The translations under genes were made by a program, and so were the position numbers. Below, in pieces: positions 4,145 through 50,700 of a DNA stretch of 64,000 bases (positions are counted from its first letter, which is position 1; each line of letters begins with the position of its first letter). Source of the stretch: Cheilinus undulatus (Eukaryota); contig NC_054879.1 of assembly GCF_018320785.1 (NCBI RefSeq), forward strand, positions 26,584,546 through 26,648,545, read 5' to 3'. A model generated the notes under the pieces. That model had not been told where the DNA came from. It was given only the letters and a program-made list of their open reading frames with translations, and did not search any database.

Positions 4145-4804
4145 TTACATAAAAGCAAGTGTATAAAAATGACTTTCATGAAGTGATTTAAAAGATATCA
4201 CTGATTCTGTATGCCTTATCTCCTCTGGCAGGTCGTTCCAAAGTCGAGGCGCCCTGACAGAGAAAGCCCTGTCACCTTTAGTCCTAAGCCTCGACCTTGG
4301 AACGACCAGGAGGCCCCCGGCCGAGGATCTAAGACTGCGGCTTGGCTCATAAGGGTTGAAAAGTTCAGCTAAATAGCTTGGAGCCAGGTCCTTCAGTGCT
4401 TTAAAAGTAAAGAGGAAAATTTTTGAACCAATTCTAAAACTTACAGGGAGCCAGTGTAAGGATGCTAAAATAGGGGTGATGTGATGCCATCTATTAAAAC
4501 CAGTTAGAAGCCTAGCTGCTGCATTCTGGACCAGCTGTAGGTCAGAGAGGGATCTTTGACTGATGCCGCGGGGAGGAGAGTTACAATAATCGAGTCTGGA
4601 GAAGATGAGTACACGGATGACTTTTGTAAGGTCTGCTTGGTTGGGTACAGTTTTTATTGTCGCGATGGTTTGGGTATGGGAAAAGCTTGACTGGACAACT
4701 TTACTGATATGGGATGTGAAGGTAGGATCTGAATCAAATATTACTCCAGGATTTCTGGCTGTGGGTCTGATATTTTCTGAAAGAGTACCAAGACAAGAAA
4801 GCAT
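4145..4804 (-). mobile_element. LINE (L2/CR1-like) ORF2 C-terminal fragment
   Basis: ORF with LHWLPVSFRIGSKIFLFTFKALKDLAPSYLAELFNPYEPSRSLRSS...VPRSRLRTKGDRAFSVRAPRLWNDLPEEIR. This is the stereotyped C-terminal tail of a fish LINE ORF2. Confidence 0.55.
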
Positions 4805-5420
4805 GAGGTTGAAGGAGTTTGAATGTTAAAAAGTATTATTTCTGATTTAGAGTTAATGAGCTAAAGACATGATAATTCCTTGTACTAACATTCATGTTTT
4901 TGAACTCAAATGCAAATACAGATAGTTAATTTATGAGAAACACAGAATTAAATAAATTTTCAGCAGTTTTTTAATGCAGTGAACAGGATGGTTATTATTT
5001 TACTTGCATATTTATCGTTTTACAAGTGCATTTAGTGATGAAAGATTACAGAAGAAGTTCCAGCTAATAAAATCCAAAAAAAAGAGAAGTTAATCAAAGT
5101 AAAAAAAAAAAAAAAATAGAAATAATTTTTTTTTAATAAAATCAGAAATACAAATAAAAGATGAAATAGGAATAAAAATTAAAATGAGATAAATTAGGAG
5201 GTTAAATTCATTTCCATTTTTTAAACACAAAAAAATACATTAGAATAATTATAATAAATACAAAAAAAACATAAAAAGGGTTTTGTTTTGTTTTGTACTC
5301 ATTTTTTAAACTATGATGATGCCTCTGAAAAGAATGGTTTGGTATCTTTCCCTGCAGCCTTCTGTGATTTCCTGTCCTAATTCCCTTATCAGGAAACTAT
5401 TTTTTTCACTTCTGAAACGT

Positions 5421-5431
5421 GTCATTTCCTC
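5421..5431 (+). promoter_or_regulatory. Conserved promoter motif (gtcaTTTCCtc variant) 104 bp upstream of the copy 2 ATG
   Basis: This is a variant of the gacttgtcaCTTCCtc motif shared by all lectin copies. The GGAA core lies on the opposite strand. Confidence 0.4.
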
Positions 5432-5534
5432 ATACATCAAATAAAAAACTTGACCTTAAAACCCAAAGGACTTTTACAGCATTCAAACGCAGTGGACAAT
5501 CCAGAGTGAAGCTTATAGGAAACAGAAGGCATCA

Positions 5535-8500
5535 ATGGAAGAAATGGATGAAATCTACGCCAACATTGATTATGAGAAACCTGACAATGAAAAGACACAG
5601 ACCATCCAGACAAGTAAGAGTCCTCACTATGTCTGAGCTTTGAAGTATATGTATCATCATGCAGCATTGTCTTATATGGTTCTGGCTGTGTTCAGGTCCT
5701 GGAAGCTCATATCAGAGATTTTACAGACCTGTTGTTCTTCTTCTTGGACTGCTAAATTTTCTCCTGCTGGCTGGGATTGTTGGCCTCTGTGTCTGTGAGT
5801 CAGTTTTATTTATCCTAAACCATATTTTTACTTTTGCAGGATGTGTCATGATGTGCACTGCACAAGGATATTTGCTGAGGAAAGATGATCCAGTGTAAAA
5901 ATTGAGACACTGTAGTAGTATTTTCATCTGTATCTGTTTACTTAAGACTGATTCAATTCAGTGATATTTGTTTCATTGCAAGATTTTGCAATACAAGACA
6001 CAATAATGAAGCAGAGAAGATGTTTCATGGTTCATTTATTCTGTGAATAAGGTCAAGAAAGCACTGGGTCCATTCCCTCTTAACAGAGCCATTTACTTTC
6101 TTTGCACAAGCTCATGTGATACCAAAATATGTCATATTCTACAAAACCAGAAGCTGGAGAGAGAGGGAACACATCTGATCATTTCAAAAATGTTTTAATC
6201 CATCAGGTTTTATGATTGAAATCCACAGAATGGGCACAAACACTGTGTTTAAAGCAAGGTTTCAAGGTCGGAGAGAGTGAAAGAGAGCATATGATACAGG
6301 AGTGACCACAGTATCTGAGACCAAGACATGCCTGACACCAGAGTGCAACGAGACTAACCAAGACATTTGGGGGTAGAGACCAAGACAAGCTGAGCCTGAG
6401 ACAAGATCAAGACCATTAAAAAACATTTTAAAAATCATCAAAAGGTTGAACAGTTAAAGAACACTCTCTCTTTTATTTTAGTTTGCTTTGAAAATTATTT
6501 GGCAGCAACAAAACAAGATATCTGCAAAAACAATGCAAAAATCTAGAATCTAAGCAAATTTCTTCAAGGCTCTGAAATGCTCTGCTAGTTTTACACCAGA
6601 TTTTTAGTTTTACACCAGTATAATTGTTGTCTTGTCAGTCCACAGAATATGGACTCCATAGTTTTATGAACTCTCCCATTGATGCTATTTTTTCCCAGGC
6701 TCTTTCTTATTGTTGAATCCTGAACTCTGACATTAACTGAGTCAAGTGAGGCCTGCAGGTCTTTAGATGTTGTTCTGGGTTCTTTTGGGAACCCCTGGAT
6801 GAATCGTCAATGTGGTCTTGGAGTCATTTTGGCAGGCTGGCCACTCCTGAGAAGGAGCCGAAAAATAAATAAATCTGTAGTAGTATTAAAAAGCCACTGA
6901 TAAGTCCAGAATTGTTTTAAATATGTGAATTTTAGATGTTTATCTAGATTTGCCAGTTGAATGAGGCCTATAATAAGAGTTTTTGGTGTCTGAAACATTA
7001 CATCATATGCCCAGCCTGAACAAAATTCAGTAATGTTCCATATCATTTCATGGGAAATAAAGATTTAAAGAAGAGCTTGGTTGCATCTAAGAAAGATGAG
7101 ACTCAAGAATTTTATGACGTAAACGTGCACAGTGGGATATCAATATTATGGCCCCTCTACTAAAACCCTCTCAGGGGCACAGATGGTTCAAATCTGGCCC
7201 TTTCCCATATGTCTCTCCCCGCTCTCTTGTCCCTGTCTCCAACTCCATTGTCCTCCTCTAGCAATAAAGAAACAAAAAAAGCCCAAAAATAAATCTTTTA
7301 AAAAAACCTCTCAGCTGGTGCAGAGGAGGAAGGAACTGAAAGCACTTTCTGTGCCAAGTTGTGGAGTGTTGGGTTGGTGGTCTTGACCAATCTTGATGGA
7401 AAATACCAAGTCCAAGACTGTTATCGAGTACTACAACACTTCAACAAACCATTTATTTTATGTAAACTGGAAAGTAAGTAAACTTTTTTTAAGTAATTGT
7501 TTTGTTTTTTAGTTTACCTCATTTTTTATTTGTGATGATGCCTCTGAAAAGAAAGGCTTGGTATCTTTTCCTGCAGTTTCCTGTGATTTCCTGTACTAAA
7601 TGCCTAATCATCCACATTGGACAGAGCGCTTCATATATTTACTTTTTTTGGACAAGATCATGCAACACAACACTGTGTCATAGTGTAGAAACCAGATGGC
7701 GAGAGAGGGACCACATCTGATCAATTCAGACCTAAGCGGTTGTGATTATAAATTTTGGCCTTAATCTGTAATATTCAAATGATTGTAATCCACCGAAAAA
7801 GCCAAACACTGTGTTAAGAGTGAGTTTTCATGGTTGGAGAGAGAGAAAGAGAACTGCAGCCACTGCTCTGAATGGTCAAACAATCCTCTGAGAATTTGTG
7901 CACTGAAATGACTAAACTAAGCATGTACAATATTGTTTTTCAGTTTTTTGCCAATATCCAAACTCATGTTAGCCAATAGGGATAAATATTTTTTCTATTG
8001 TTATATTCTATGTTGAAACAATACAATAAAAGCCTTTCTTCCTCATTTTACCCTAGCCAAGAGAAATTTAGAGATACTCAGACTTAAACTTAACTTTGAA
8101 TGCAGACTGTTTTTAATTGTTAAATAAACATTTCTCTTCAAATATTTCAGACCAAGCCTCAGTTCATCGTTCATCTGCAGAGCTCTCTGCCACCAAAGCC
8201 AATCTAACTGAGCATCTCCAGGCCAAAGATAACCAGCTGTCCTCACTGACTGAACAGAGGGATCTTCTCAATGTCAGCCTCACTGACATGAGTAAAAAGC
8301 TGGAGAGACTTCAGAGTTTGTCCAAGCAGAGTGAGTTTTCTGCAGGATGGTTTCTGCTCACAGCGGTCTGTGATCAAACCACAGCGTCATTTATGTGTCT
8401 TTTTATGATAAAAGTGAACGACCAATTACCATGAAAATGGTGGTCACTGACTCCAAGTGACATTCGTCATCATGTCAGACTCTTTTACTTCCTTTAAAGG

Positions 8501-14864: not shown

Positions 14865-15637
14865 ACCGAGCCTCAGTTCATCGTTCATCTGCAGCGCTCT
14901 CTGCCACCAAAGCCAATCTAACCAAGCGTCTTTAGGCCAAAGATCAGCAGCTGTCCTCACTGACTGAACAGAGGGACCTTCTGAATGTCAGCCTCACTGA
15001 CATGAGGAAAGATCTGGAGAGACTTCAGAGTTTGTCCAAACAGAGTGAGTTTTCTGCAGGATGGTTTCTGCACCCAGCTGTCTGTGATCAAACCACAGTG
15101 TCGTTATTCAGAGAGCAACACTATTGTTGACTACTCCCACTTCTGTTACCTGTCTTTACCAGTCAGTTTCCCTATGCATTTGTAAATCTTTTGTTCACTG
15201 AGCTCCTTGTTTTAGGGCTGTTATCTCAGTTGTAAATATCAGCATGAATTTTCATATCTGCTGTTGTCAATGACATGCCAATTATATTGTGATACCCTAA
15301 TTTAAATTACAATACAACTGTTTTAAAGAGTTCTGAGTGGTTCACTGATGAACAGTCTTGAGTACAGACATCTAAAAAACAAAGGTTTTATCTCCTAGAT
15401 CAAACTAGGAGATGGTCTTGGACACATTTTTCAATATTTGTCACTGTTTCTCGGTCTTTTCTGCTCTCTGATGTTTGTTTATCATGTTTTACAGAGAAAA
15501 TTTGCCCTGCAGGATGGAAGATGTTTCATTGTGTCTGTTATTTTTTCTCAACAATTAAAACCTCTTGGGACAGTAGCAGGCAAGACTGCAGAAACAGAGA
15601 AGCAGATCACGTGGTCATCGACATTTCTGAGGAACAG
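14865..15637 (+). pseudogene. Lectin gene fragment: neck pseudo-exon with in-frame TAG plus an intact-looking CTLD exon 1. No 5' exons and no CTLD exons 2-3.
   Basis: 14865-15044 is homologous to the 180-nt neck exon, but CAG has become TAG at 14933-14935. 15495-15637 is a 143-nt CTLD exon 1 with an open frame (EKICPAGWKMFHCVCYFFSTIKTSWDSSRQDCRNREADHVVIDISEEQ). It sits between copy 2's stop and copy 3's ATG, and no CTLD2/3 exons follow it. Confidence 0.6.
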
Positions 15638-16572: not shown

Positions 16573-16588
16573 GACTTGTTATTTCCTC
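16573..16588 (+). promoter_or_regulatory. Conserved promoter motif gacttgttatttcctc, 112 bp upstream of the copy 3 ATG
   Basis: Positionally conserved across the paralogues. Confidence 0.4.
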
Positions 16589-16699
16589 ATTTACTGCAAA
16601 GAGATTGCATGAGCTAAAACCAAAAGGCCTTTTCCGTAATTCAAATACAGTGCACGCTGCAGAAAGGACCTTTAGAAACAGATAGCATCTTTCGTGGAA

Positions 16700-19600
16700 A
16701 TGGAGGGAATCTACGCCAATGTCGAACATGATAAGACTGATGAAAACCCTCAGACCATTCAGACAGGTAAGAGTGTTCACTTTGGCTCAGCTGTTTGGGA
16801 ACATGTATTATCATGCAGCGTTATAACTCATGTCATATGGTTTGGTCTGTGTCCAGGTCCTGAAAGCTCACCAAGGAGATTTTACAGACCTGTTGCTCTA
16901 TTTCTGGGACTGCTCAGTGTTCTGCTGCTGGCTGGGATCATCACCCTCAGCATCTTTTGTAAGTCAGTTATAGTCCTTTAAACTTTTTCCGGTTGCCATG
17001 TCAAGATTTGCTCAGTATAAAGATATACACTGTAGAAAGGTTATAATTTTTATTATTATTATCATTATTATTATTATTATCATTATTATTATTATTATTA
17101 TCATTATTATCATTATTATTATTGAAAAAATTAGACAAAATGTAAGCAAGTAGAGAAGATGAAATTATACAATTTGCCCTTGATCTGTCATGTTTCATCA
17201 TTTCAAAATCTACAAAATCTATGTCTGACTGACTGAGTGAGTGACTCTCTTTCAGAGCCATACCATACAGAGTTTCGCTGTGGATGAGGTTTCGTTTTAT
17301 TTCGCTTCTGCCGACCTGCGTTTGCATGACTTTGTGATGGTTACGAGGAAAGGGTTAGTTGCTCTATTAAAACAAGTGCAGAGAGCAACACTGGAAGTTT
17401 TCCATGACAGAAAAGATGTTTTCGCTCTACTCCCGGTTGTTTTTTTATTTCAGCAAAAAAGAGGAGATGTACTGTGTGCTCTCGTTCTGTGGTAAACTCC
17501 AAATTGAAGCCAGGTGCTCTTGTAGAATGAGGAGTATATTCAAAAAACAGGGGAGAGGCCACCGGGGCAATCTTCAGGCACACTCACTCGAGTCAAGGAT
17601 TTAAGTAAAAAGCCTTTAATACATCAGGGTATAACTAATAAAACAATAACAACCACGGGGAAAGCCGACCAGTTTCGACCACGCAGGGTCTTCATCAGGG
17701 CGTGAACAAAACACTGACACAGGTGAGGTTCATTTAGAGAATCATGTAATCTGAAGGCTGAATCCACACCAGCTAGAAGGTACCAGGCTAAAGAAAATCT
17801 CAGAATGAATATATAACCCCCAATAATGGTGAGAAGTTAGGATAAAGACATTATCAAAGAAAAATCATATGAGAGAGTACCAAAGCATGCTATATGTCAC
17901 CAAATGCAGAATATAAGCTAAATTAATGAAAAGATGCAGGAGATACAAATATGCATATGCTAGTACAACATGTACACTTGCACCTACACTAATACATACA
18001 AACATGTATACATATATTCATACCTATAAACACATAAGCATCCATCCACATACTAAAGAAGTTAAGGCTACAGTAAAAATATCTATAGACTTAAGGCAGA
18101 TTTTCAAAAGAAAGGGGGGTAAGATGCTCAAAGAAGGGATGCAACTGAATTCAAACAGAATATCAGTGAAAATTGATAATGTGAGCCGATCTATATACAA
18201 TAAAGACGTACATTTTCACAGAAATATGCTAATCTTACAACAGAGAAATAGATTATTCTAAATTTATAAAGCCATCTTCTATAGAAAAGGTTTGAAATCA
18301 ATCTCCTCATTAAGGCCCAGATAAGTCATAGCACCAAACCTAAAGATCCAAAAGGTCTCTCTTTGAAGCAGTTTTTTTTTAAACAATCACCACCTCTAAC
18401 TGACTGCTCTACTATTTCTAAACCTTCTACCATCAGAAGGCTGTCATTACTTTGATGACATTCCTGAAAATGGCACGCCATAGGGTAGTCCACATTGTTA
18501 GTTTGTATAGCATATTTATGCTCAGCTACCCTATCTTTTTGACGCTTTTTAGTGCGTCCTATGTAAAAACAATTGCAGGGACAGGTGAGGCGGTATACTA
18601 CATATGTTGAATTGCAGTTTATAAAATGTTTAATCTTGTATACCTCTCCTGTTTTTAAGTTTGTAAATTCCTTTTGTTGTATAAGTTTGGGGCAGTGATT
18701 ACAACTACATTTCAGGCATTTAAAGCTTCCAATAGGTCTCTTGAGCCACTGGGCTTCCCTTCTAGCTGGAAGACAGCTATGGGTCAGTTTGTCTTTCAGG
18801 GAGGGAGCTCTTTTGTAATGGAAGCTAGGTGGCTGATCGAATATCTCCTTCAAAGAAGGGTCACTCCTGAGGATGTCCCAGTTGGATAGGATGACATGTT
18901 TAATCTGCCTGGCCTGTTTACTGTAACGTATAACAGCATGTATACCTGACGGGTCTTTTTTTGGTTTATTAGAAGGTTGTAGAAGGTGGTGACATCTGAT
19001 AGAAGCTGCTTTGGTCTGAGCTGTGGAGATAATAGTCTTTTTATATGATCTATCTAAAAAGCGCGTTGTCATGACTTGAGATTATATCTGAAAATCTGAG
19101 TCCTGGTCGCATTTTTTTATTTGTTTGCACAATAAAAGAATTGCTATTGTTTGTACAGCTTTCACAAAGGAGGTACAAATAAGGATTTGTGTAGGTGAGG
19201 TAAGGATACCTGAGAGGGCTTGTAATTAGACCTCACCATGTAAAGTATTCTTCATCACTCACCAATAGTGATAAGCGTAGACGGTCTGTTTCGGTATGTG
19301 TTTGCTGTCATCACGGTGGGGTTGTCTGTACCAAGGGGGCTGCTGCAAATGTTTGCTCAGATGTCGCTGTAAGAAAGTGGCAGTTTAATCAGAACTGGAC
19401 AACATTTCTTTTAAAACCAGAGCAAAGAGCTGCACTGAAAGCTTGTCTTGGCCAGTGTTGGGAAAACTACATTACAATAACACTGTTACTTTTATGGTAA
19501 CTAGTGGTGTAATGCATTTAAAATCATTAACCCTTAGAGGTCCACTGGCCATTTTCTTAATTTTCCGTTGACAAAATAAACCACTCAGAAAATGTATACC

Positions 19601-25600: not shown

Positions 25601-27925
25601 TTTGTGCTTTATACATGACGTGTTCTGGCCAAAAACTGGCACAGATATATTTTATTTTGACCTTGACTATGAAAAAGTGACGTGATTTGCTACCTTTAAA
25701 ACTTTGATCTGCTTCTAATGAAGTGTAGTTCCACTTTGGACGAGTGAATCAGTGGGATTCATAGTTTTAGCCATTTTTTTTAAAAGTTATTAAACTGGAT
25801 GCACTAGCCAGGAAGGAGTCAAGACCAGGATAAACTTCTAAAGAGTTCCACCTGAGAAAGGAAAAAGAGGCTCTGTTGTCTCAGTAGACTGTAGCACCAA
25901 ACAGGTGAAATAAGGAGAGGTTCTCAGACACATCTGTCCACATTTGTCATTGTTTCTAGATATTTCCTGCTCTCTATTATTGGTTGTTCATCATATTTTA
26001 CAGAGAAAACTTGCTCTGCAGGATGGAAGAGGTTCGAATGCTCCTGCTATCTCTTCTCAGAGCAGAAAAACTCTTGGGAAGGAAGCAGGCAAGACTGCAG
26101 AAACAGAGACTCAGATCTTGTGGTTATCGAGAGTTCTGGGGAACAGGTAATGTGTTTATATATAAACTATATATAGTTTATATATACACTTATTTTCACC
26201 TTCTTGTCCTGGTCATAGTGGCTGAAGGCTATGCTTGTCACCCCACACATCCCAAAGCAATTTTTTTCCAGCTCCTCTTGGGAGGTTCAGAGTCATTCCC
26301 AGGCCCAGCAAATTCTGGGTCTTTCCTTGGGTACCCTCTGAGACCTCACCAAGGAGGCAACCCAAAGACAAACTGATCAGATGCCTAAGCCAACTTGACT
26401 GGCTCCTTTCAGTTTGAGGGAGCAGTGACTCTACCTCGAGGTGTCCAAATTTATCAAACAAAGCTGAGTCCAGCTGCTGTCCTGGGGAAGTATTTGAATG
26501 ATTTGTAGCCATGATCTAACTCTTTAGTTCACCACCCAAAGTTCATGACCATCTGGGAGGGTTGAAACAATGATCAACTGATAAATTCAGTTTTTCTTCC
26601 AGATCAGATCCCACTGAAGAGCTTTTTGACTACTATAGTGATAAACATAAATATAAAAACAGGATCTCTGCCTTCAACAGGAATTTGTCTCCAACAACAT
26701 TAAGGATTGGGCTTGGATTGGTCTGAGTGACAGAGAGAATGAAAACATCTGGAAATGGACAGATGGCACCCCGCTGACTCAGGGGTAAGGCACACACTGA
26801 TGTTGTTGTTTCATGCCTTAGCTTAAATTTAGGCATAAATATAATGATTCTTGTAGCACAGTCATGATTATTTTACAAATCAATACACAAATAATTCTTC
26901 TACCATATACTTTTTTTTCTTTTTTAATTAATGCCCATCTAAATGAGTCACAAATCAAACCAAAAACTCAATTCTAATTTTAGCATGCACATAAAGCAAA
27001 AACTTGTTGGTTGAAATTAGTCAGAGAAGCATTTTTTTTTTCTTTACTAACAACATGAGGCCCTGTTAAAGGGATATTTCAACATTTTGGCAAATTCGCC
27101 CATTGCCATAATTCCTATAGTCTTAGTTATAGGTTCGTTTCCTTTATTTGTCGGTGCAAGCTGTTTCTAGATCTGGGGGGACTGTTAAACCAGCTGCACC
27201 ACCAAAGCTATTTTAACAAACAGAATTTTTACTTTCCCTCATCAAACTCATAAAATACACAATCCAACAACTCCAAAACGCTCTCTAGACAAGTTGTGAC
27301 CTGCACATTTACTATGCTATGGAATAATGTATAATTATGTAACATTACAAAACATGAAGCAAATACTCGGAACAATTTCTTGATTGAACCACTGGGTGGG
27401 GTGACACAGTGCAGCAGCCATGTCTGGAGTGTAGTTCTGGTTTTGCATTTAACTTTAAAACATCTCCTTCTCATAATGTTCAATGATTATTTCATAGCGT
27501 GATGAATGTACAGGCTACAACTTGTCCACAAGAGTGTTTTGGAGTTGTTGGATTGTGTATTTGATGAGTTTGATGAGGGAAAGCAAGAATTCTGTCTGCT
27601 AAAGTAGTGTTCGCGGTGCAGCTGGTTCAACGGTCCCCCCAGATCTAGAAACAGCTTGCACGAACAACTAAAGGAAACAGACCTATTACTAAGACTATAG
27701 GAATTACGGCAAGGGGCGAATTTGCCAAAATGTTGAAGTATCCCTTTTAAGTCACACTTGTTAACCTCTTACAGATACTGGTGGTCTGGGCAGCCTGATA
27801 ATGGTGGAGGAGATCCACAGTGGGGCGAAGAAGACTGTGTTCATTTAGAAAATCACAGAGGAAAAGAGGCAAACTGGAATGATGTGCGATGTGACAAGTC
27901 ATTGCTTTGGATTTGTGAAAAATAG
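16700..27925 (+). CDS. Type II TM C-type lectin receptor, copy 3, apparently intact (249 aa). It has a large TE-filled intron between the neck and CTLD1 exons.
   Basis: Exons: 16700-16766 (MEGIYANVEHDKTDENPQTIQTG), 16857-16958 (TM), 20651-20830 (neck ...LSKQ), 26004-26146 (KKTCSAGWKRFECSCYLFS...DSDLVVIESSGEQ), 26681-26784 (EFVSNNIKDWAWIGLSDRENENIWKWTDGTPLTQG), 27775-27925 (YWWSGQPDNGGGDPQWGEEDCVHLENHRGKEANWNDVRCDKSLLWICEK, TAG 27923-27925). Total 747 nt, divisible by 3. AATAAA at 28036-28041. Confidence 0.65.
17040..17125. repeat. Compound (ATT)n/(ATC) microsatellite
   Basis: The tattattatt...atcattatt tract. It explains the poly-N/D ORF on the minus strand. Confidence 0.95.
18326..19072 (-). 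mobile_element. Penelope-like element fragment (GIY-YIG endonuclease domain with CCHH zinc finger)
   Basis: 248-aa ORF containing CLKCSCNHCPKL and YVVYRLTCPCNCFYIGRTKKRQKDRVAEHKY, a GIY-YIG motif. Confidence 0.6.
22100..24420 (+). mobile_element. Non-LTR retrotransposon ORF2 (RT) fragment, frameshifted
   Basis: Overlapping ORFs carry RT motifs (IPGFSGCLEHTSMIWHQ, HVIFLDLANAFGSVPHNLL) and a C-terminal CX2C...H region (CSLCPSPASLKHIMTGC). The frame is broken across 22315-24236. Confidence 0.6.
27061..27751. mobile_element. Foldback/MITE-like element with inverted arms of about 240 bp
   Basis: 27061-27300 is the reverse complement of about 27510-27751 at roughly 90% identity. The termini are ccctgttaaagggatatttcaacattttggcaaattcgcc and ggcgaatttgccaaaatgttgaagtatcccttttaa. 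It lies in the CTLD2-CTLD3 intron of copy 3. Confidence 0.6.
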
Positions 27926-29513: not shown

Positions 29514-29529
29514 GACTTGTCACTTCCTC
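29514..29529 (+). promoter_or_regulatory. Conserved promoter motif gacttgtcacttcctc (ETS/PU.1-like GAGGAAGTG on the minus strand) upstream of copy X
   Basis: The reverse complement GAGGAAGTGACAAGTC contains the PU.1/ETS consensus core GAGGAAGT. Confidence 0.45.
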
Positions 29530-29601
29530 TTTGATGAAAAAAGGACTTTCTTCACTATTCAAACTTAGTCTGCTCTGCAGATGGGACCTTTTAGGAAACA
29601 G

Positions 29602-32600
29602 ATGGCATCATTTGAGGAAACTGAGGGAATCTACGCCACTATTGACGATGTTAAACCTGTCGATACCAGACCTCCAACCATTTGGACAAGTAAGAGCGTT
29701 CACTTTGACTCAGCTGTTCAAGAACAGGCATTATCATGCAGCATTATTACTCTTCTCATATGGTTCTGTCTGTGTTCAGGTCCTTTTTGGAAACAGATAT
29801 CATTTGATGAAAGTGAAGGAATCTACGCCACTATCGACGATGTAAAACCTGCTGATGTCAGCCCTCCAATCATTTGGATAAGTAAGTATTCAGTTTGAAC
29901 TCAGCTGGTCAGGAACATAAAATTATGCAGCATTATAACTCGTCTCATATGGTTCTGTCTGTGTTCAGGTCCTAGAAGCTCATCAAGGAGATCTTACAGA
30001 CTTGTTGTTCTTCTGGGACTGCTAAATCTTCTCCTTCTGGCTGGGATCATCGGCCTCAGCATCCTCTGTGAGTCTGTTTTACGGACTTTTACGATTGTAA
30101 ACCAAATTTGAACCTTTGCCATGTAATTTATCAAAAAATTAAAGGGAGAGCCGTTCCAGGCATGGAGTGGCAGAAAGGATGATAAAAGTCAACGGAGAGT
30201 AAGCAGGAAGCATCATCATTTCAGCTGAAAATTATCGTCATTTTTGATAGTTACATCTTGATATGTTCACCGTGCTCAGTACAGATCCTAATCAGATTGT
30301 TTATAGAAATGTTTGGAGTTGTAACAATGCCATGCAGTCAGATCCGGGTAGATTACAGCCATGTTGGGTAACAGTAACCTAGCTAGCCACAATGGCAGGT
30401 TGAATTTATCAGTGTCACAGCTTAAGCTCTACTCTGACCATGCTTGTCTGCTAGCCCTGATGATTTAGATCAGGGGACATCAACTATATTTAAACAAGGG
30501 CCAACGTTTTCCCATACAGGCACTTTGGGGGCCAAACTTTATTTAAAACCATTTATAAATTGGTCTAGTTAATGTTTTTTTGTTGAAATATTTTTATTTT
30601 CTTTCGAATTCATGTAATTTTAAGGCTCTAACAGTGAGATCAGTCTCCATATTGCAGCCAGCCACAAGGAGGCAATTGAGATATTCTAGCTGAATATTTC
30701 AGTGGCTGTGATATTGTCCATCGCTAGGTTTGACGCTAATATGTCGTGTAGTGACGGCAAAACACGTGAAGCCAAGAGTTGACAGAAAACGACAGTTTAA
30801 ATCATGAATGGACTGATAAATATGTGTTTAATATGCATCATGTTTGCTAATAATGGCTGACAGGTGGATGTCTGAAAAATGGATGAAACAAAGTCATTCC
30901 TGATTAAACTTTCAATCTTAATTGTTCCTGAAGTTGTTTTAATAGCTCTAGGGAGTTTGTTTAAAGAAATGGGAAAAAAGACACCTGAAATACTACAACA
31001 TATTTTTTCCTCTGAACATGTTCTTAATTTCATAATGATCTGGGGGCCGGATGTGGCCCCCGGACCACCAGTTGATGATCACTGATTTAGATGCTTGTTG
31101 AAGTGAGGCCGTTCAGCACATACAAGTCTCAAATCTACCCCAGAATAACTGGAACGTGGCTGGTCTCATCATCCATTCGAGGGTTTTTACGCAGTACCAA
31201 GAGCTTTCATGCTGTATAACAATGACCCACACAAATGCCACACTCACTGACATACACACACACGGATGTGCTGTTAATATAGACTGAAGGATTTCATCTG
31301 TTTAGGGAAAATGTTTCAGACTGTTAGAGGACAAACACAGGCCTGAACTCTGTCGCTGTCAGAGGGAAAATATGAGATGTTCTTGTAATCTGCTGTAGTT
31401 TTTTTTCCTGACAAACAGTTGACAGTATTTTAATATTAGCATAAATGTAATACCCATTGAAGGGAATAAAAATATCTAAGAGTAATTGACAGCATAGATG
31501 ACCGTCTCTAACAATGAAGTATGACACACATCTCTGTAGTGTGCTGCCTTATTTTCACTGGGAGAAGTGTGCTATTAAGAGGAGAGATAATATTGATCAT
31601 TTTGATGAGGGAAGATAAAGAATGTGTGTCATGTCATACCATATGTACCAAATTTGGCATGTAGCACATAGTTTCCAAACACCAAAAATGTGGCTAGTGG
31701 AGCTACAGCATGCCTAGCAAGTTCGCAAAACACTAGCCACCATGGCGAGAGAGCAAAATCATTAATGCTAAGCCCTGTGGGTGTGTGTGTATACAGGATG
31801 GCTCTTTTCCCTTAATAAATGACATCATTATTTACAAATTATTTCTATTTACTCTGGTTAACCTCGTCCAATATTAAAATTTGTTGATGATCTGAAAGAT
31901 TAAAGTGTAATAAAATTAAGAAAATCTGTGAGAGTCACAGCACTGTATATCATCAGAAACAGTGTGACTGTTCTTTTAAGAAAATTTAAAGACGCTGATC
32001 AGACAGGAGCATTCAACCCTACCTCTGTATTTCCTGTTTTTTGTTGTTGTCAGTTTTTTTTTGTCGTGTCATTCAGACATGTTAATCCAGTTATGAAATC
32101 GGACATTTCTCTTTTAAAAAGTTCCAGTCACAGTGATGGAAAGGCGTCGATGAGACCTTGACCTGAAGCTCTCTTTCTGTCCATGCATCATGGAACCATC
32201 TGCTGCTGAGCCGCACAAGCCTGAGTGGTGTAAAATCAGCCAATAAGGCCAATGTTCAGACCTGAAAGCTGTGTTGTTATAATGCCTTTACTTTTTCAAT
32301 GGGAACACTGAAGTTTATGTTTTTATTAGCATCATAAACTTTATCAATAAAAGTGCGAAGGCCAAGGACAGTCTCCTGACTCTGAATCATTTAGGTTGGG
32401 TAATTTGGATCAGTTTTAGGGTCATGCTTATAAGGCCCACTTATAATGTCATATCTGCTCAAAGAAACATAGAGTAAGCCTCATTTAGATGCACACAGTT
32501 CACCCTGTTAAAGAAATCTTTTTCTTTGTATTATTTCAGACCGAGATTCAGCTCATCATGCATCTGCAGAGCTATCCGCCATTAAAGCCAAGCTAACTGA

Positions 32601-32742
32601 GCATCTTCAGGTCAAAGATGAGCAGCTGTCCTCACTGACTGTACAGCAGAACCTTCTGGATGTCACACTCACCAATATGAACAAAGAGCTGCAGAGTCGT
32701 CTGCGGGGTGATGCTTGTGTACAGATGTATTTATTCGATTAG
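29602..32742 (+). CDS. Truncated lectin paralogue (copy X): duplicated cytoplasmic-motif exon, TM exon and neck exon that reads through to a stop. No CTLD exons. Possible CTLD-less product or a pseudogene.
   Basis: Exons: 29602-29689 (MASFEETEGIYATIDDVKPVDTRPPTIWT; an upstream in-frame ATG at 29581 is also possible), 29780-29881 (SPFWKQISFDESEGIYATIDDVKPADVSPPIIWI, a second copy of the motif fused to a TM-exon-like 5' end), 29969-30067 (TM, SPRSSSRRSYRLVVLLGLLNLLLLAGIIGLSIL), 32540-32742 (neck; the canonical CAGA|gtgagt donor is lost, and the frame runs on to TAG at 32740-32742). AATAAA at 32862-32867. No CTLD exon is seen before copy 4 starts at 36667. The frame from the ATG to the stop is 492 nt, about 163 aa. 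Confidence 0.45.
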
Positions 32743-36550: not shown

Positions 36551-36566
36551 GACTTGTCACTTCCTC
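36551..36566 (+). promoter_or_regulatory. Conserved promoter motif gacttgtcacttcctc, 101 bp upstream of the copy 4 ATG
   Basis: Identical 16-mer to the one at 29514. Confidence 0.45.
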
Positions 36567-36666
36567 ATTTTTTTCTGATGAATAAAAATGCAAGAACTTA
36601 AAACCTAGAAGACTTTCTCTGCAGTCACATTGGCCCACACTGCAGACAGGACCTTTTAGGTCAGAG

Positions 36667-39600
36667 ATGGCATCACTCATGGAAATGGAGGGAATTTACG
36701 TCAATATTGGAAGTGCTGCTGATGTCAGACCTCCGACCATTCAGACAAGTAAGAGTATTCCCTTTGACTCAGCTGTTCAGGAATAGCTATTATCTTGCAG
36801 CATTTTAAATCTCATGCGGTTTGGTCTGTGTTCAGGTCCTGAAAGCTCACCAAGGAGATTTGACAGACCTGTTGCTGTTTTTCTGGGGCTGCTGAATGTA
36901 ATCCTGTTGGCTGGGATCATTGGCCTCAGCTTCCACTGTGAGTTATTTTATTTTTAGCACCACTTTAAAAAGAACCTACAGCTTCCAGGCTTCAGTTTGT
37001 TTGACTTCCTGATAAAGGCTTGATGCCGAAACGCGTTGAAGTGTGTTTTTAGGTCAACTCTTGACCATTCCATGAAAATAAAGACATTTTAATGCTTGTA
37101 AAGAGAGTCCACAATGTAATAAATCCCTTTAACTTTGAATTACAAACAAAATTATTTTTAGAAACAAATAAGTAAATCTGAATATGACATAAAAATCAAT
37201 ATACAAATATGAACAATGTTAACGTCAAAGACAGTAACAACAAGAGTGGAGCACTTACTACAGGGGTCATCAACTAAATTACTACAAGGCCCAGCTTTTC
37301 CCTGATGGACACTTTATGGGCCAGACTTTAAAATAACCTAAAATAAAGGGGGTCAAACAGCCAGTTGGTAAGGCCGCGCCCCATGCACACAGGAGGTGCA
37401 GGTTCAGATCTAGCCTGTGGCTCTTTTACTCTTTCGTCTTTCTATGAATGCTCTGTTAGTTTTACTCCATATGTCACAGGACGAACACCTTCCAAAAAGT
37501 TCAGCTTTTGTCTGGTCAGTCCACAGAACATTTTATCAAAAGTCTTGGGGATCATCAAAATGTTTTTAATCAAATGTGAGACAAGCCTTTGTGTTGTTGT
37601 TGGTCCACAGTGGTTGGATGCCATTTTTGCCCAGTCTCTGTCTTATTGTCAAACCATGAGTCAAGTGAGGCCTACAGGTCTTTAGGTCTTCTGGGTTCGA
37701 GTTGTTTTGGTGGGCCGACCACTGTTCCAAGTTTTCTCCATTTGTGGATAATGGCTCTCACTGTGGTTCACTGGAGTGCCAAAGCCAAACCCTTTCCAGG
37801 CTGATAGATGTCAGTGTCTTTGTTTCTCATGTGTTCTTGAATTTCTTTAGATGGCGCCATGTTGGGCTGCTTTTTGAGATCTTTTCGTCTATTTGACTTT
37901 GTTAGACAGGTTCTGTTTAAAGGACTTCTTGATTCGACAGATCTGGCAGTAATCAGGCCTGGGTGTGGCTAGTGTAACTGAACTCAGCTTTTCAAATAAT
38001 GTGGTTGATCACAGTTAATCCATGATTTTACTCTGGGGATCAGTTACTTTTTCACGTACTTTTTCAAGTCTGGATGGCTTTTTGTGTTCACCCTAGTTAT
38101 CTTTGTCTGATATCAAAATAAGTTTAATGACCTGAAACATTTAAGTGTGAGAAAACTAAGAAACAAGGGAGGGGAGGCGAACACTTTTCACAGCATTGTA
38201 TATCATTAGAAACACTTTAATTACACCTTTTATACAATTTAAAGACTCAGGAACATTCACCTCTATTTCCTCTATTTCCTGTTGTGTTGTTTCTTTGTCA
38301 TGTCATTCAGATACGTTAATTCAGTTATGAAATCAGGCGTGACTGTTAAAAGAGGAAGTTCCAGTCATTGCGGGTGAGATCGATGATGGAAAGGCACTGA
38401 TAAAACTTTGAGAATATAGTGTTTACCTTTTCTTAGTGATCGAAGCCTGAGTGGCGTAAAATGAGCTGATATAATTGGATATGGTTCCAGTCTACCCTTG
38501 CAAAGCAGATGGGTTTGCCAGACTCCATGTCTGCCATCAGACAAATCCATCTAGGAAAGCTCTAATCCACAACATTTGTGGTGAGCAGACACTGGTGTGG
38601 CCTATCAGCATTATCTGGGGAGAACAAGGCTGTAGTAATGGTTAGGGTTAAGCCATTCACACAGGATAAGCGAAGCTTGTTATATACTCAAATTTACAGA
38701 CATTTCTGAAGGAAACTATACAGGTACTGTATAGAAGCAGAAATGATAACACAATGTTTTTTCTAGCGTAAACTATTAAAGTTTACTGCAGGAACGGAGG
38801 CTCCAGCCGACTGTCAAAACTCAGATACAGGAGGAACAATGCAGATTCCATCCTGGCTGTGGGACAGTGGCCCAGCTCTTTACTCTCACAGGACTTCTTG
38901 AGGGAGTGTGGGAGTTTGCTAATCCACTCTAAATGTGTTTCGTGGGCAAGGCTTATGGTCATGTCCTTCAGGGGGAGTCATGTGAGACCAAAAACACTAT
39001 TTCTAACCTATATGTGTCAAAAAGTTTGTTAACAATCTCCTATGCAGGCTTTTTTTTTTTTTTTTTTTGATCAGGAAAAGCTGCAAGAACCGTAACAAAC
39101 ATAATTACCACTCTAAATTACAGAGATGCTGATTGGTACAGAATAAGTATTGCCTTTGGACCTCTGTGTGTGCTGTAATATGGTGGGTAATTAACCCTGG
39201 CATTTTTTCTCTGCATTCTGTTGAAGAAACATTTTTCTTTGATTATTTCAGCACATCATGTATCTGCAGAGCTCTCCACCATCAAAGCCAATCTGACTGA
39301 GCAGCTTGAGGTCAAAGATCAGCAGCTGTCTTCACTGAATGAACAGAGGGACCTTCTGAATGTCAAATTCACCAACATGAGGAAAGAGCTGTCTCAAAAG
39401 AGTGAGTTCTACCAAAGCTAACTGATCTCTTAAGTTTCTTTTTTATGATTAAAGTTCATGACCAACTATCATGTCCAGCGCGGTGATTGGCTCCAAAGTT
39501 ACATTAATCACCATTCTAGTAACTTTCACTTCCTTTAAAGGGTAAAGTGAAAATAGAGGAAACACTATTCCAACTCTGTTAGCTGTTTTCAAATCAAAAT

Positions 39601-47638: not shown

Positions 47639-47654
47639 GACTAGTCACTTCCTC
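47639..47654 (+). promoter_or_regulatory. Conserved promoter motif gactagtcacttcctc, 101 bp upstream of the copy 5 ATG
   Basis: Same motif and spacing as the other copies. Confidence 0.45.
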
Positions 47655-47754
47655 AATCGATGAAAAAAAAAAACATACATTTGAACCCCAAAAGACTTCC
47701 TCCTCAGTCATAGTAGTCCACGCTGCTGACAGTACCTTTAAGGAAACAGATAAA

Positions 47755-50700
47755 ATGGCATCATTTCATAAAACTGAGGAAATCTACGTCAATGCTGAAG
47801 ATATAAAACCTGTTGATATCAGACCTCCGACTATTCAGACAAGTAAGAGTATTTACTTTGACTCAGCTGTTCAGGAACATGTATTATAATACGGCATTAT
47901 AACTCGTCTTATATGATTCTGTCTGTGTTCAGGTCCTGGAAGCTCACATGGGAGATTTTACAGACCTGTTGTTCTTTTCCTGGGGCTGCTCAGTATCATC
48001 CTGCTGGCTGGGATCATCGGCCTTGGCGTCCTCTGTGAGTCAGTTTTACTTACTTCTGCTCTGATGTTAAATCATATTTAAACCTTTGCAAGTGTCCTAA
48101 GTATGAAGATATTTACTGGATAAATTAAATAAAGTCTGAATTCTGAGATTAACGTGAGAATTCTGAAATTAATCTCAGAATTAGAAAAAAAAAAATTGGA
48201 CCTCAAAATTTTTTTGGTGGCCCTAACCCTCTTTAGAGTAATCCTATAACAAGAAAATTGTTGCACAAGCTTGTGCACCAAGTCTGATGCATTTATTTTT
48301 CTGTTCATTAACCCTTTCCAGACAGATAAAGGCCCGTGTTTTTGTGTCTCATCTGTTTTTAAATTTCTTTAGATGGCACCATGAGGCGTTTCTTTTTGAG
48401 ATCTTTTAGCCTTATTCATGTTGTCAGACAGGTTCTATTTAAGGGATTTCTGGATTCAGCAGTTCTGGCAGTAATCAGGCCTGGGTGTGGCTAATGAAAC
48501 TGAACTCAGGTTTCCAAAACATTTGGTTGATCACAGTTAATTCATGATTTAACAAGGGGGAGCAATTACTTTTCCAGATAGAGGCAGGTACGTTTAGATG
48601 GCTTTTTTCCCTTAGCAAATGAAATCATTTAAAAACTGCTTTTTTTTTTATCAACTTGGGTTAACTTCATCTAATATCAAAATTTGCTTTAAAACCTGAA
48701 ACACATGTGTGTGAAAATATGAAAAAAAAATGGATTCAGGAAGGGGGCAAATACTTTTTCACAGCACTGTAGATCATCAGAGACAGTTGATTTGGCCTTT
48801 TAGAAAATGTAAAGACAGGAACATTCAGCTCTACTTCTTGTGTTTCCACTTCTGTTGCATTTGTTATTTTTTGTCATGTCATCCAGATATGTTAATTGAG
48901 TTATGAAATTGGACATGATTCTCTCAGAAGAAGAAGTCCAGTCACTGTGAATGAGACGGATGATTGAAAGGCGTTGATAAAACCTTGAAGAGATAGCCTG
49001 TTACCGTTTACATGCAGAGTTTCTCTCCTTCATATGAAAGTGAAGAGCTCTTCAATATGAACTAGATACCGGTCCCACACACAAATTTGGCTTGGCCCCT
49101 GAAAAACCCAGAGAGTGGGCCCTCCACAGCTGGGATTTATTTATACCAATGCATGTCTATTAGATCAGTAGCATTAATGCTAGCGTCCTGGCTAACAGTT
49201 TCCTCAGGTTGGAGCTGAAAGGTGTCTCGAGCTATTATTGGGTTCTGATGTTGGTATTATTTTTATCACCACCTTTTTTTTGCCACTTTTCACCTTTTAG
49301 GCACTTTTTTGCCAATTACTGCAACTTGTTTAGGCCATTTTTAACCCATTTAACATTTTTGCCATTTTTGATCCATTTTCACCCCTTTTTGTCCAGTTTA
49401 ACGGTTTGCTGCTTTTCACCAATTTTTTGCCTCTTTTTGCCCATTTTTGCGTGGTTTCACGCCACTTGTTGACTGTTTTTGTCACTTTACTCCTATTTAG
49501 CAACTTTTTTTTGCAAATAACTACAACATCTTTGGCCATTTCCCCCCCGATTTTTGCCACTTTTGCCCATTTTCAGCACTTTTTGCTATTTTGGCACATT
49601 TTTGATCTTTGTAAGGCACTTTTTTGCCAATGATTGCAACTTCTCTTTACTAATTTTAAACCATTTTACCACTTATTGCCCTTTTTTGCCACTTTTAACC
49701 CATCTTTACCACCTTATGTCCATATTTGCAATGTTTTGCCCCTTTATTGCCACTTTATGCCCATTCGTTTCCCCCCCTTTTCCATTTTAGCTGCCTTTTG
49801 GTATTTTTACCCATTTTTGCCTCTTTTTGTCTAATTTAAAACTTTTTGCTGCTTGTTTACCATTTTTTAACCGCTTTTTGTCACTTCCTGGCCCATTTTG
49901 TCACCATTCACCTTTTTTAGCCACTTTTTGCCAATTACTGCAACTTCTTTTGGCCCCTTTTAACCCACTTTTTACCACTTTTTTCCTTTGTGTTAACCCA
50001 TTTAGCCATTGTATTGACATTTTAACCATTTTTTGCCACTTTTAACCAATTTCTTGTCTATTTTTGAAAATTATTTCATGTTTTCCCATCCAGACCACTG
50101 ATCAAGGCTTTGTAGATGATGCTGTGATCCCTGTGGAGACTGTAGATGTCCTTGTGAGGGCTCTTAACTTGCTGAGTGAGGAGGCTGAAATGTTGGGAAT
50201 GCATGTCTCCTTGGTCAAAACAAAGATCCAGGCTTTGGGAATGCTTTGGATGCTATCATCGACTCTGTGTCTGTGAATTGTGAGAGCATGAAAGTTGCAG
50301 TTCGCCTACCTTGGCACTGTAATTCATTGATCCACTGGCTGCAAGGCTGAGATCAGCCACAGACTTGTGCATGGGGTGATGAGTTTGCTGACCAAGATGT
50401 TGTGGCATTCCAGGTATCTGAGCATGAAAGGCAGAGTCTTTCAGTCCCTGGTCCTCCAGGTCTTACCCTACTCTTGTGAGGCCTGGACCTATGGCCAGAG
50501 CACCCTGACTGGACTCCTTTGTGACAACTTTTTTTGGGGGGTTCTGTTGGAAAGACTGTGTATTGAATGCTGACGTCCTTGGGAGAGCAGAGAAGGAAAA
50601 GGGTCAGCTGCTTGATACAGGGACGGCTGCTCCGCTTTTATGTGGTCCTGGCATGCTTTCCCAACCTGATCCAGCTAATTACATACTAGGTGCCTAGGAT

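What the first reader, a model, noticed from the sequence alone, without database searches (positions are those of the whole stretch)
29514..29529. The 16-mer gacttgtcaCTTCCtc is conserved about 100 bp upstream of every lectin ATG, an ETS/PU.1-type site
It occurs at 5421, 16573, 29514, 36551 and 47639. Spacing to the ATG is 101-112 bp for copies 2-5 and 73 bp for copy X (52 bp if the upstream ATG at 29581 is used). No TATA box is evident. The reverse complement GAGGAAGTGACAAGTC carries the PU.1 core GAGGAAGT found in TATA-less myeloid promoters. It was retained through the duplications while the flanking DNA diverged. This predicts myeloid or dendritic-cell-restricted expression, as seen for mammalian CLEC4, CLEC10A and CD209 genes.
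Basis: partly seen in the sequence, partly recalled or inferred. Interest (0 to 1): 0.55.

Follow-up and report, generated by a model that had tools for sequence, protein, structure and literature searches.

The report
Conserved PU-box in fish lectin promoters
A short ETS-type (PU.1-like) transcription-factor site sits about 100 bp upstream of the start codon of every C-type lectin receptor gene in this wrasse gene cluster, and of their relatives in six other fish species, so it looks like a real promoter element of an already well-known kind.

Summary
The window is a tandem cluster of CD209/CLEC4-like type II C-type lectin genes from the humphead wrasse, Cheilinus undulatus. My spliced gene models equal RefSeq proteins exactly. 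The motif exists, once per first coding exon (5 of 5) and nowhere else at up to 3 mismatches. The 16-mer is exact in only two copies. The others carry 1, 2 and 3 mismatches, and the first copy is at 5416, not 5421. Three copies read GAGGAAGT on the antisense strand. The two 5' copies read GAGGAAAT.

In 19 homologous promoters from seven percomorph species, a sense-strand CTTCC core lies 78-130 bp upstream of the ATG. ACTTCCTCA is the best conserved non-coding block (column identity 0.94-0.97 against a 0.54 background). No column shuffle reached that value (0 of 20,000).

The G two bases before GGAA fits class III ETS factors (PU.1, Spi-B, Spi-C). The promoters have no canonical TATA box and are CpG-poor.

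The most likely reading is a proximal-promoter PU box, as in mammalian DC-SIGN, FcγRI and CSF1R. The binding factor, the TSS and the expressing cell type remain untested.

"Copy X" is not a separate gene. It is an alternative promoter and first-exon cassette of the next lectin gene.

This is an ordinary kind of element, well supported, and of modest interest.

The parts
5416..5431 (+). PU-box copy of gene G1 (XP_041662853). AACGTGTCATTTCCTC; antisense GAGGAAAT, a weakened variant.
   Evidence: It ends 104 bp before ATG 5535.
16573..16588 (+). PU-box copy of gene G2 (XP_041662856/7). GACTTGTTATTTCCTC; antisense GAGGAAAT, a weakened variant.
   Evidence: It ends 112 bp before ATG 16700.
29514..29529 (+). 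PU-box of the 'copy X' cassette. Antisense AAAGAGGAAGTGACAAG, the fullest match to the PU.1 consensus recalled from memory.
   Evidence: It ends 52 bp before ATG 29581 and 73 bp before ATG 29602.
36551..36566 (+). PU-box copy of gene G4 (XP_041663334). Exact 16-mer; antisense TGAGGAAGTGACAAG.
   Evidence: It ends 101 bp before ATG 36667.
47639..47654 (+). PU-box copy of gene G5 (XP_041662299). GACTAGTCACTTCCTC; antisense TGAGGAAGTGACTAG.
   Evidence: It ends 101 bp before ATG 47755.
47695..47702 (+). Second exact ACTTCCTC in the G5 promoter, 48 bp downstream of the first. The other paralogs have the degenerate ACTTTCTC here.
   Evidence: Channa argus paralogs also carry two PU boxes, 17 bp apart.
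36640..36645 (+). CTGCAG, the core of the second conserved promoter/5'UTR block (GCTGCAGAG in the cross-species consensus), shown here for G4. Its homologues are at 5499-5504 (ATCCAG), 16657-16662, 29575-29580 and 47723-47728 (CTGCTG).
   Evidence: second best conserved 9-column block (0.87 in 15 promoters, 0.92 in 7); it is a poor splice acceptor, and the AG is absent in G5.
5535..5613 (+). First coding exon of G1 (cytoplasmic tail, MEEMDEIYANI...).
   Evidence: model; identical to a RefSeq protein.
16700..16766 (+). First coding exon of G2 (MEGIYANV...).
29581..30067 (+). Alternative 5' cassette ('copy X'): exon 1 at 29581-29689, duplicated exon 1' at 29780-29881 (a second EGIYATIDDV motif) and a TM exon at 29969-30067. 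It splices to the G4 neck exon at 39252.
   Evidence: the spliced model translates exactly to RefSeq XP_041663335 (P0123).
36667..36748 (+). First coding exon of G4 (MASLMEMEGIYVNI...).
47755..47842 (+). First coding exon of G5 (MASFHKTEEIYVNA...).

Best explanation
The element is a proximal-promoter ETS site of the PU-box type. It reads GAGGAAGT on the antisense strand and ACTTCCTC on the sense strand. It belongs to the 5' cassette (promoter, cytoplasmic-tail exon, TM exon) of teleost CD209/CLEC4-like type II C-type lectin receptor genes.

Shown:
- It is present once per first coding exon in the wrasse cluster.
- It is the most conserved non-coding block upstream of the ATG in seven percomorph species.
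- It always has the same orientation and lies 78-130 bp before the ATG.
- The promoters lack a canonical TATA box and are CpG-poor.

Inferred:
- A Spi-family factor (teleost Spi1/PU.1, or possibly Spi-B or Spi-C) binds it.
- As in mammalian TATA-less myeloid promoters, that factor nucleates the pre-initiation complex a few tens of bp downstream.
- The TSS probably lies near the conserved CAGTCC / GCTGCAGAG block, which would give a 5'UTR of roughly 35-50 nt.
- Expression would then be restricted to PU.1-expressing leukocytes (macrophages, dendritic-like cells, possibly B cells).
- The two copies with GGAAAT (G1, G2) are predicted to be weaker or differently regulated sites.
For: -: five matches, one per exon 1, against 0.6 expected. 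Exact ACTTCCTC occurs at only 0.05-0.07 per kb per strand in 237 kb of fish sequence, and 4 of the window's 6 copies lie in these promoters.
- 19 of 19 homologous promoters have the CTTCC (or TTTCC) core on the sense strand at -78 to -130 from the ATG. The species are C. undulatus, Notolabrus celidotus, Labrus mixtus, Acanthochromis polyacanthus, Channa argus, Scomber scombrus and Epinephelus coioides.
- ACTTCCTCA is the best conserved 9-column block, at 0.94 for 15 promoters and 0.97 for one promoter per species, against a 0.54 mean. In 20,000 column shuffles, none reached it.
- within the window the motif is an island of identity (0.86-0.91) between flanks at 0.57-0.58.
- (Wei 2010, PMC2905244): G at -2 before GGAA in 16 of 19 primary sites, which is the class III (SPI1/SPIB/SPIC) signature.
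- (PMC4334403): GAGGAA is the primary motif of PU.1 ChIP peaks.
- no TATAWA, GC 0.35-0.39 and CpG o/e 0.16-0.61. This matches the TATA-less, non-CpG-island, purine-rich macrophage promoter class (PMC11077085; FcγR1b PU.1 + Inr, PMC2191524).
- Precedents: PU.1 drives DC-SIGN/CD209 (Dominguez-Soto 2005, cited in PMC11432452) and Dectin-1 (PMC4910222). A percomorph PU.1 activates a macrophage promoter through Ets motifs (PMC8766968).
Against: - No binding, expression or TSS data could be obtained. C. undulatus is not indexed in the contig look-up.
- GAGGAAGT is also bound in vitro by other ETS proteins (own knowledge), so the factor assignment rests on one flank position.
- Two of the five window copies carry GGAAAT. 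Three of the 19 primary sites have CAGGAA.
- No real SPI1 weight matrix could be run (matrices not held).
- The distance to the TSS is unknown, and an upstream non-coding exon cannot be strictly excluded.
Confidence: 0.6

Rival explanations
1. It is a functional promoter ETS site, but it is bound by a non-Spi ETS factor (for example Ets1/2, Fli1/Erg, Elf1, Gabpa, Etv6), perhaps together with a bZIP partner on the adjacent TGAC half-site. Expression would then not be specifically myeloid.
For: The GGAAGT core is shared by most ETS classes. Three primary sites are CAGGAAGT, which suits class I/II. The 3' flank GGAAGTGACAAGT is identical in three distant species. It resembles the ETS/AP-1 composite AGGAAGTGACTAA of the polyoma enhancer (from memory).
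Against: 16 of 19 sites have G at -2 (GAGGAA, GGGGAA or GCGGAA), the class III preference. None has the CCGGAA of class I/II. No full AP-1 heptamer is present in any window copy.
Confidence: 0.2
2. The ATG exon is not the first exon. Transcription starts at an upstream non-coding exon, and CTGCAG about 25-40 bp before the ATG is a splice acceptor. The motif would then be intronic, acting as an intronic enhancer or an internal promoter.
For: CTGCAG is strongly conserved. G2 has two RefSeq proteins with identical sequence, which implies transcripts that differ outside the coding sequence.
Against:: pyrimidine content upstream of the candidate is 0.50-0.65, at or below the lowest true acceptors of these genes (mean 0.67). 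An AG lies within the 20 nt upstream in every copy. G5 has CTGCTG, so there is no AG at that position, and G1 has ATCCAG.
Confidence: 0.1
3. The motif is itself transcribed and acts at the TSS or in the RNA, as a pyrimidine-rich initiator (TCT/TOP-like) or a 5'UTR pyrimidine element, rather than as an ETS site.
For: On the sense strand it is a pyrimidine run starting with C (CTTCCTC). Its orientation is invariant in 19 of 19 promoters.
Against: The base before the C is a purine in all 19 primary sites (A in 17, G in 2), whereas TCT/TOP initiators need pyrimidines at -1 and -2 (own knowledge). Receptor genes are not TOP mRNAs. The conserved letters match an ETS site base for base, including the G at -2 and the GT after GGAA.
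Confidence: 0.06
4. There is no function: the identity is only what recent tandem duplication or gene conversion left behind.
For: Intron 1 of the five paralogs is 0.81 identical, almost as high as the motif.
Against: The same core sits at the same position in six other species from different percomorph families, while everything around it has diverged. No column shuffle reached that level of conservation (0 of 20,000).
Confidence: 0.03

Closest known systems
PU.1 site of the human CD209 (DC-SIGN) proximal promoter (Dominguez-Soto et al. 2005, J Biol Chem 280:33123; cited in PMC11432452)
   Same: Same gene family (the wrasse genes are annotated CD209 antigen-like). A PU.1-type ETS site in the proximal promoter is proposed to give tissue-specific expression in myeloid antigen-presenting cells.
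   Different: No sequence homology of the promoters was tested, because the paper itself is not held. Binding and function are shown for the human gene and only inferred here. The fish genes are co-orthologues of the CLEC4/CD209 group in general, not of DC-SIGN specifically.
TATA-less PU.1 + initiator promoter of human FcγR1b (PMC2191524), and the TATA-less, non-CpG-island, purine-rich macrophage promoters such as Csf1r and Tlr9 (PMC11077085)
   Same: No canonical TATA box, CpG-poor, and a PU box close to where transcription is expected to start. An Inr-like CAGT lies downstream of the site in most copies (read from the alignment).
   Different: The TSS is not mapped here, so the site-to-TSS distance is unknown. 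It would be about 55-65 bp if the TSS is at the CAGTCC block, which is further than the site 'adjacent to the start sites' in FcγR1b.
Ets motifs of the large yellow croaker cathepsin S promoter, bound and activated by teleost PU.1a/PU.1b (PMC8766968)
   Same: A percomorph fish, a macrophage-expressed gene, and (G/A)GAA Ets motifs in the promoter that depend on PU.1.
   Different: A different gene with four dispersed motifs. That work has experimental ChIP and luciferase evidence, which is lacking here. Here a single site (sometimes doubled) is conserved across species.
ETS-IRF composite element (EICE, GGAAnnGAAA; PMC4334403)
   Same: It starts with the same GGAAGT and is used by PU.1 and Spi-B. 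The window sites read GGAAGTGACA, one base away from GGAAGTGAAA.
   Different: None of the 19 promoters has GAAA at the IRF position, so the element is not an EICE.

Membership tests
Class III ETS (SPI1/PU.1, SPIB, SPIC) binding site ('PU box') | GGAA core | tested here: met
   All 5 window copies and all 19 promoters carry TTCC on the sense strand, which is GGAA on the antisense strand.
Class III ETS (SPI1/PU.1, SPIB, SPIC) binding site ('PU box') | G at position -2 before GGAA (GAGGAA), which separates class III from classes I and II (Wei 2010) | tested here: met
   5 of 5 window copies read GAGGAA. 16 of 19 primary sites across species have G at -2. The three exceptions read CAGGAA.
Class III ETS (SPI1/PU.1, SPIB, SPIC) binding site ('PU box') | GT after the core (GGAAGT) | tested here: inconclusive
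   Met at 29514, 36551 and 47639. Not met at 5416 and 16573 (GGAAAT). In the other species, 11 of 14 primary sites read GGAAGT and 3 read GGAAGC.
Class III ETS (SPI1/PU.1, SPIB, SPIC) binding site ('PU box') | A-rich 5' flank (AAAGAGGAAGTG; consensus recalled from memory) | tested here: inconclusive
   The full AAAGAGGAAGTGA occurs only at 29514. The other copies have A/T-rich flanks: AATGAGG, ATTGAGG, TATGAGG. No weight matrix was available.
Class III ETS (SPI1/PU.1, SPIB, SPIC) binding site ('PU box') | Occupied by a Spi-family protein in vivo or in vitro | not testable with these tools
   This needs EMSA, ChIP or CUT&Tag in teleost leukocytes.
TATA-less, non-CpG-island, PU.1-dependent myeloid promoter | No TATA box | tested here: met
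   No TATAWA lies between motif and ATG in any copy. Only ATAAAA/TTAAAA strings occur, in G1 and G4.
TATA-less, non-CpG-island, PU.1-dependent myeloid promoter | Not a CpG island | tested here: met
   GC is 0.35-0.39 and CpG o/e is 0.16-0.61 from 200 bp before the motif to 200 bp past the ATG.
TATA-less, non-CpG-island, PU.1-dependent myeloid promoter | PU box close to the mapped TSS | not testable with these tools
   No transcript 5' ends were available. C. undulatus is not in the contig index.
TATA-less, non-CpG-island, PU.1-dependent myeloid promoter | Myeloid or antigen-presenting-cell-restricted expression | not testable with these tools
   No expression data were available.
ETS-IRF composite element (EICE) | GGAAnnGAAA | tested here: not met
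   0 of 19 promoters; the window copies read GGAAGTGACA, GGAAATGACA or GGAAATAACA.
ETS/AP-1 composite (RAS-responsive element) | AP-1 heptamer TGA(C/G)TCA abutting the ETS core | tested here: not met
   Only a TGAC half-site follows GGAAGT or GGAAAT in 4 of 5 copies (TGACAAG, TGACTAG, TGACACG). No full heptamer is present.
TCT / 5'TOP initiator | Pyrimidines at -2 and -1 before the initiating C | tested here: not met
   The base before CTTCC or TTTCC is a purine in all 19 primary sites: A in 17, G in 2.

The most novel reading that the evidence does not exclude
The PU box and the GCTGCAGAG block may form an ancient bipartite core-promoter module. It would be roughly 100 million years old, a figure based on percomorph divergence that was not computed here. 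The module travels as one unit with the cytoplasmic-tail and TM exons. In the wrasse, a truncated duplicate of this 5' cassette ('copy X', 29514-30067) has been captured as an alternative promoter and first exons of the next lectin gene. One ectodomain can then be made with two different signalling tails (one or two EGIYxxI motifs) under separately evolving PU-box promoters. Promoter-plus-tail cassette shuffling would thus be a way for fish lectin receptor clusters to diversify signalling.
Probability: 0.3. Interest if true: 0.45.

Novelty: new member of a known kind. Interest (0 to 1): 0.3.

Why it matters
It gives a concrete, testable cis-regulatory handle for a large and poorly characterised family of teleost C-type lectin receptors. 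A 9-bp element conserved across percomorph fishes predicts dependence on Spi1/PU.1 and leukocyte-restricted expression. It could also serve as a compact myeloid promoter module for fish transgenesis. The natural GGAAGT to GGAAAT variants in two paralogs offer a built-in test of site strength. Conceptually it extends a well-known mammalian rule, PU.1 sites in TATA-less promoters of myeloid lectin and Fc receptor genes, to fish. It does not reveal a new mechanism.

Tried and rejected
- Transcript or genome context for C. undulatus through the look-up of encoding contigs (P0002, P0123, P0121, P0126): nothing on record. The G0 promoter, which lies upstream of the window, and the transcript 5' ends could therefore not be examined.
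- A catfish relative for deeper conservation (P0054): not on record, so conservation outside Percomorpha is untested.
I used the published class rules instead.
- The DC-SIGN/PU.1 paper itself: not held, so it is cited only through a review.
- The large yellow croaker CTLR cDNA paper, read for 5'UTR length: it concerns a different lectin subfamily (EPD motif, short tail) and gives no 5'UTR figure, so it was dropped.
- EICE reading: rejected, no GAAA half-site.
- CTGCAG as a splice acceptor: considered and judged unlikely.
- TOP/TCT initiator reading: rejected on the -1 purine.
- Literature search for a described PU box in teleost CLR promoters: nothing found in the held library.

Full report
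**What the window is.**
Stop-to-stop ORFs and tblastn with fish lectin proteins show a tandem array of type II C-type lectin genes on the + strand. Each gene has six coding exons: cytoplasmic tail, TM, neck and three CTLD exons carrying a QPD motif. A protein search put the closest relatives in wrasses. One hit, Cheilinus undulatus XP_041662855, is identical to the partial gene at the left edge of the window.

I built spliced models with GT-AG introns for four complete genes:
- G1: ATG 5535, stop 12214.
- G2: ATG 16700, stop 27925.
- G4: ATG 36667, stop 43739.
- G5: ATG 47755, stop 55466.

All four are letter-for-letter identical to C. undulatus RefSeq proteins annotated 'CD209 antigen-like protein A/C'. 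The window is therefore humphead wrasse chromosomal DNA.

**The observation.**
The 16-mer occurs five times at up to 3 mismatches, always on the + strand, against 0.6 expected. The copies are:

| Position | Mismatches |
|---|---|
| 29514 | 0 |
| 36551 | 0 |
| 47639 | 1 |
| 16573 | 2 |
| 5416 (not 5421) | 3 |

Each copy lies upstream of one of the five copies of the first coding exon, and there is no orphan motif.

Only three copies carry GAGGAAGT on the antisense strand. G1 and G2 are sister paralogs and share a C-to-T change that gives GAGGAAAT.

Among the five paralogs the 16-mer is 0.86 identical and the 11-mer GTCAYTTCCTC is 0.91 identical. The 20 columns upstream are 0.57 identical and the 40 columns downstream 0.58, both with many gaps. 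Intron 1 is also 0.81 identical, so identity among paralogs alone is weak evidence for selection.

**Cross-species test.**
I fetched genomic loci of related lectin genes from six other percomorphs:
- Notolabrus celidotus
- Labrus mixtus
- Acanthochromis polyacanthus
- Channa argus
- Scomber scombrus
- Epinephelus coioides

I located every homologous first coding exon (M-E-E-I-Y-x-N...) in these loci. All 19 promoters, counting the 5 from the window, have a CTTCC or TTTCC core on the sense strand 78-130 bp before the ATG. Most read exactly ACTTCCTC.

In the alignment of 15 promoters the best conserved 9-column non-coding block is ACTTCCTCA, at 0.94. With one promoter per species it is 0.97, against a mean column identity of 0.54. 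None of 20,000 column shuffles produced a window that good.

Exact ACTTCCTC occurs at only 0.05-0.07 per kb per strand in the 237 kb examined. Four of the six copies in the window lie in these promoters. The element is under constraint.

**What kind of site.**
On the antisense strand the consensus is (T/A)TGAGGAAGT(G/A/C)A. Wei et al. 2010 (PMC2905244) define class III ETS factors (SPI1, SPIB, SPIC) by a preference for G at -2 before GGAA. Here 16 of 19 primary sites have that G, none has the CCGGAA of classes I and II, and three have CAGGAA.

GAGGAA is the primary motif in PU.1 ChIP peaks, and PU.1 and Spi-B share it (PMC4334403). The copy at 29514 reads AAAGAGGAAGTGA, which is the full PU.1 consensus as I recall it.

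No site has the GGAAnnGAAA ETS-IRF composite.

The 3' flank GGAAGTGACAAGT is identical in the wrasse, a damselfish and a snakehead. This hints at a partner on the TGAC half-site, but there is no full AP-1 heptamer.

Channa paralogs carry two PU boxes 17 bp apart, and wrasse G5 has a second exact ACTTCCTC 48 bp downstream of the first.

**Promoter context.**
There is no TATAWA between motif and ATG, only A-rich strings. GC is 0.35-0.39 and CpG o/e is 0.16-0.61. This is the TATA-less, non-CpG-island, purine-rich class described for macrophage genes such as Csf1r, Tlr9 and FcγR1b (PMC11077085; PMC2191524).

A second conserved block, GCTGCAGAG, lies about 25-40 bp before the ATG (0.87-0.92). I tested whether it could be a splice acceptor, which would make the motif intronic:
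- The upstream pyrimidine content is at or below that of the weakest real acceptors of these genes.
- An AG lies just upstream in every copy.
- G5 has CTGCTG at that position.

So the ATG exon is probably the first exon. The TSS probably lies between the PU box and this block, and an Inr-like CAGT precedes the block in most sequences. That step is inference, because no transcript 5' ends could be obtained.

**Mechanism proposed.**
A Spi-family factor binds the PU box and, in the absence of a TATA box, helps to position the initiation complex. That would tie expression to PU.1-expressing leukocytes. This is what is known for mammalian DC-SIGN (Dominguez-Soto 2005, via PMC11432452), Dectin-1 (PMC4910222) and FcγR1b. 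A percomorph PU.1 activates a macrophage promoter through Ets motifs (PMC8766968). The binding factor, the TSS and the cell type are inferred, not shown.

**Rivals.**

| Rival | Confidence | Main argument |
|---|---|---|
| Another ETS factor binds, with or without a bZIP partner | 0.2 | Disfavoured by the G at -2 |
| Intronic position behind an upstream non-coding exon | 0.1 | Disfavoured by the poor acceptor |
| Transcribed pyrimidine element or TCT initiator | 0.06 | Disfavoured by the purine at -1 |
| Passive leftover of duplication | 0.03 | Refuted by the cross-species data |

'Copy X' has no CTLD exons of its own. Its parts are exon 1 (29581-29689), a duplicated exon 1' (29780-29881, carrying a second EGIYATIDDV motif) and a TM exon (29969-30067). 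Spliced to the neck exon of G4 at 39252, they reproduce RefSeq isoform XP_041663335 exactly. The PU box at 29514 therefore marks an alternative promoter of G4, not a fifth gene.

**Verdict.**
The ETS/PU-box interpretation is well supported at the sequence and conservation level and untested at the protein and expression level. The kind of element is well known in mammals. I found no description of it for teleost lectin promoters in the held literature. I rate it a new member of a known kind, with modest interest.

Noticed in passing
window 29514-30067 and 39252: 'Copy X' is a truncated duplicate whose promoter, exon 1, duplicated exon 1' and TM exon serve as an alternative 5' cassette of the downstream gene G4 (RefSeq XP_041663335). 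The same lectin ectodomain then gets a tail with two EGIYATIDDV tyrosine motifs instead of one. The cassette's own neck-exon remnant (32545-32694) is skipped.
   Followed up: yes
window 36640-36645 (homologues 5499-5504, 16657-16662, 29575-29580, 47723-47728); L001-L007 promoters: A second conserved block, GCTGCAGAG(C)nGAC, lies about 25-40 bp upstream of the ATG in all seven species (column identity 0.87-0.92). It is unlikely to be a splice acceptor. It may mark the TSS or 5'UTR, or be another factor site.
   Followed up: partly
window 5614-5695, 16767-16856, 29690-29779, 36749-36835, 47843-47932 (intron 1 of each copy): Intron 1 is more alike among the five paralogs (0.81) than the coding exon 1 before it (0.73). 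This suggests diversifying or relaxed evolution of the cytoplasmic tail, or gene conversion or constraint in the small intron. A RefSeq isoform of G0 skips the TM exon (XP_041662855).
   Followed up: partly
window 5526-5537, 16682-16702, 29581-29604: Start-codon drift. The ATGGCA start shared by the copy-X cassette, G4 and G5 (probably ancestral within the cluster) is mutated in G1 (AAGGCA) and G2 (ATAGCA), which start at a downstream ATG. The copy-X cassette gained an in-frame upstream ATG at 29581.
   Followed up: partly
window 14873-15637: A lectin pseudogene fragment lies between G1 and G2. It consists of a neck exon with an in-frame stop plus the first CTLD exon, and has no 5' cassette and no PU box.
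   Followed up: partly
L002 about 9840 and 17340; L003 about 7960; compare window 5385, 16545, 29480: Labrus and Notolabrus promoters carry TTCCTGTGGT, with a RUNX-like TGTGGT, about 45 bp upstream of the PU box. The wrasse copies keep only TTCCTGT(C/G/A), so the RUNX core is not conserved in this window.
   Followed up: no
L005 3483 and 17382: In Channa argus the called CDS starts at 3690 and 17589 appear mis-annotated. A homologous MEEIY exon 1 with its own double PU box lies about 200 bp upstream of each.
   Followed up: partly
window 4148-4825 (- strand): A 226-aa open frame resembling a retrotransposon reverse-transcriptase C-terminal region lies in the G0-G1 intergenic space. G+C-rich stretches at about 22000-26000 inside the long G2 intron may also be repeats.
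   Followed up: no
window 5535-5613 and paralogous first exons: The cytoplasmic tails carry an acidic E-E/G-I-Y-x-N-I/V motif. It resembles the hemITAM of mammalian CLEC9A and CLEC-2 (from memory) rather than a canonical ITIM, because position -2 from the tyrosine is not I, V, L or S.
   Followed up: no
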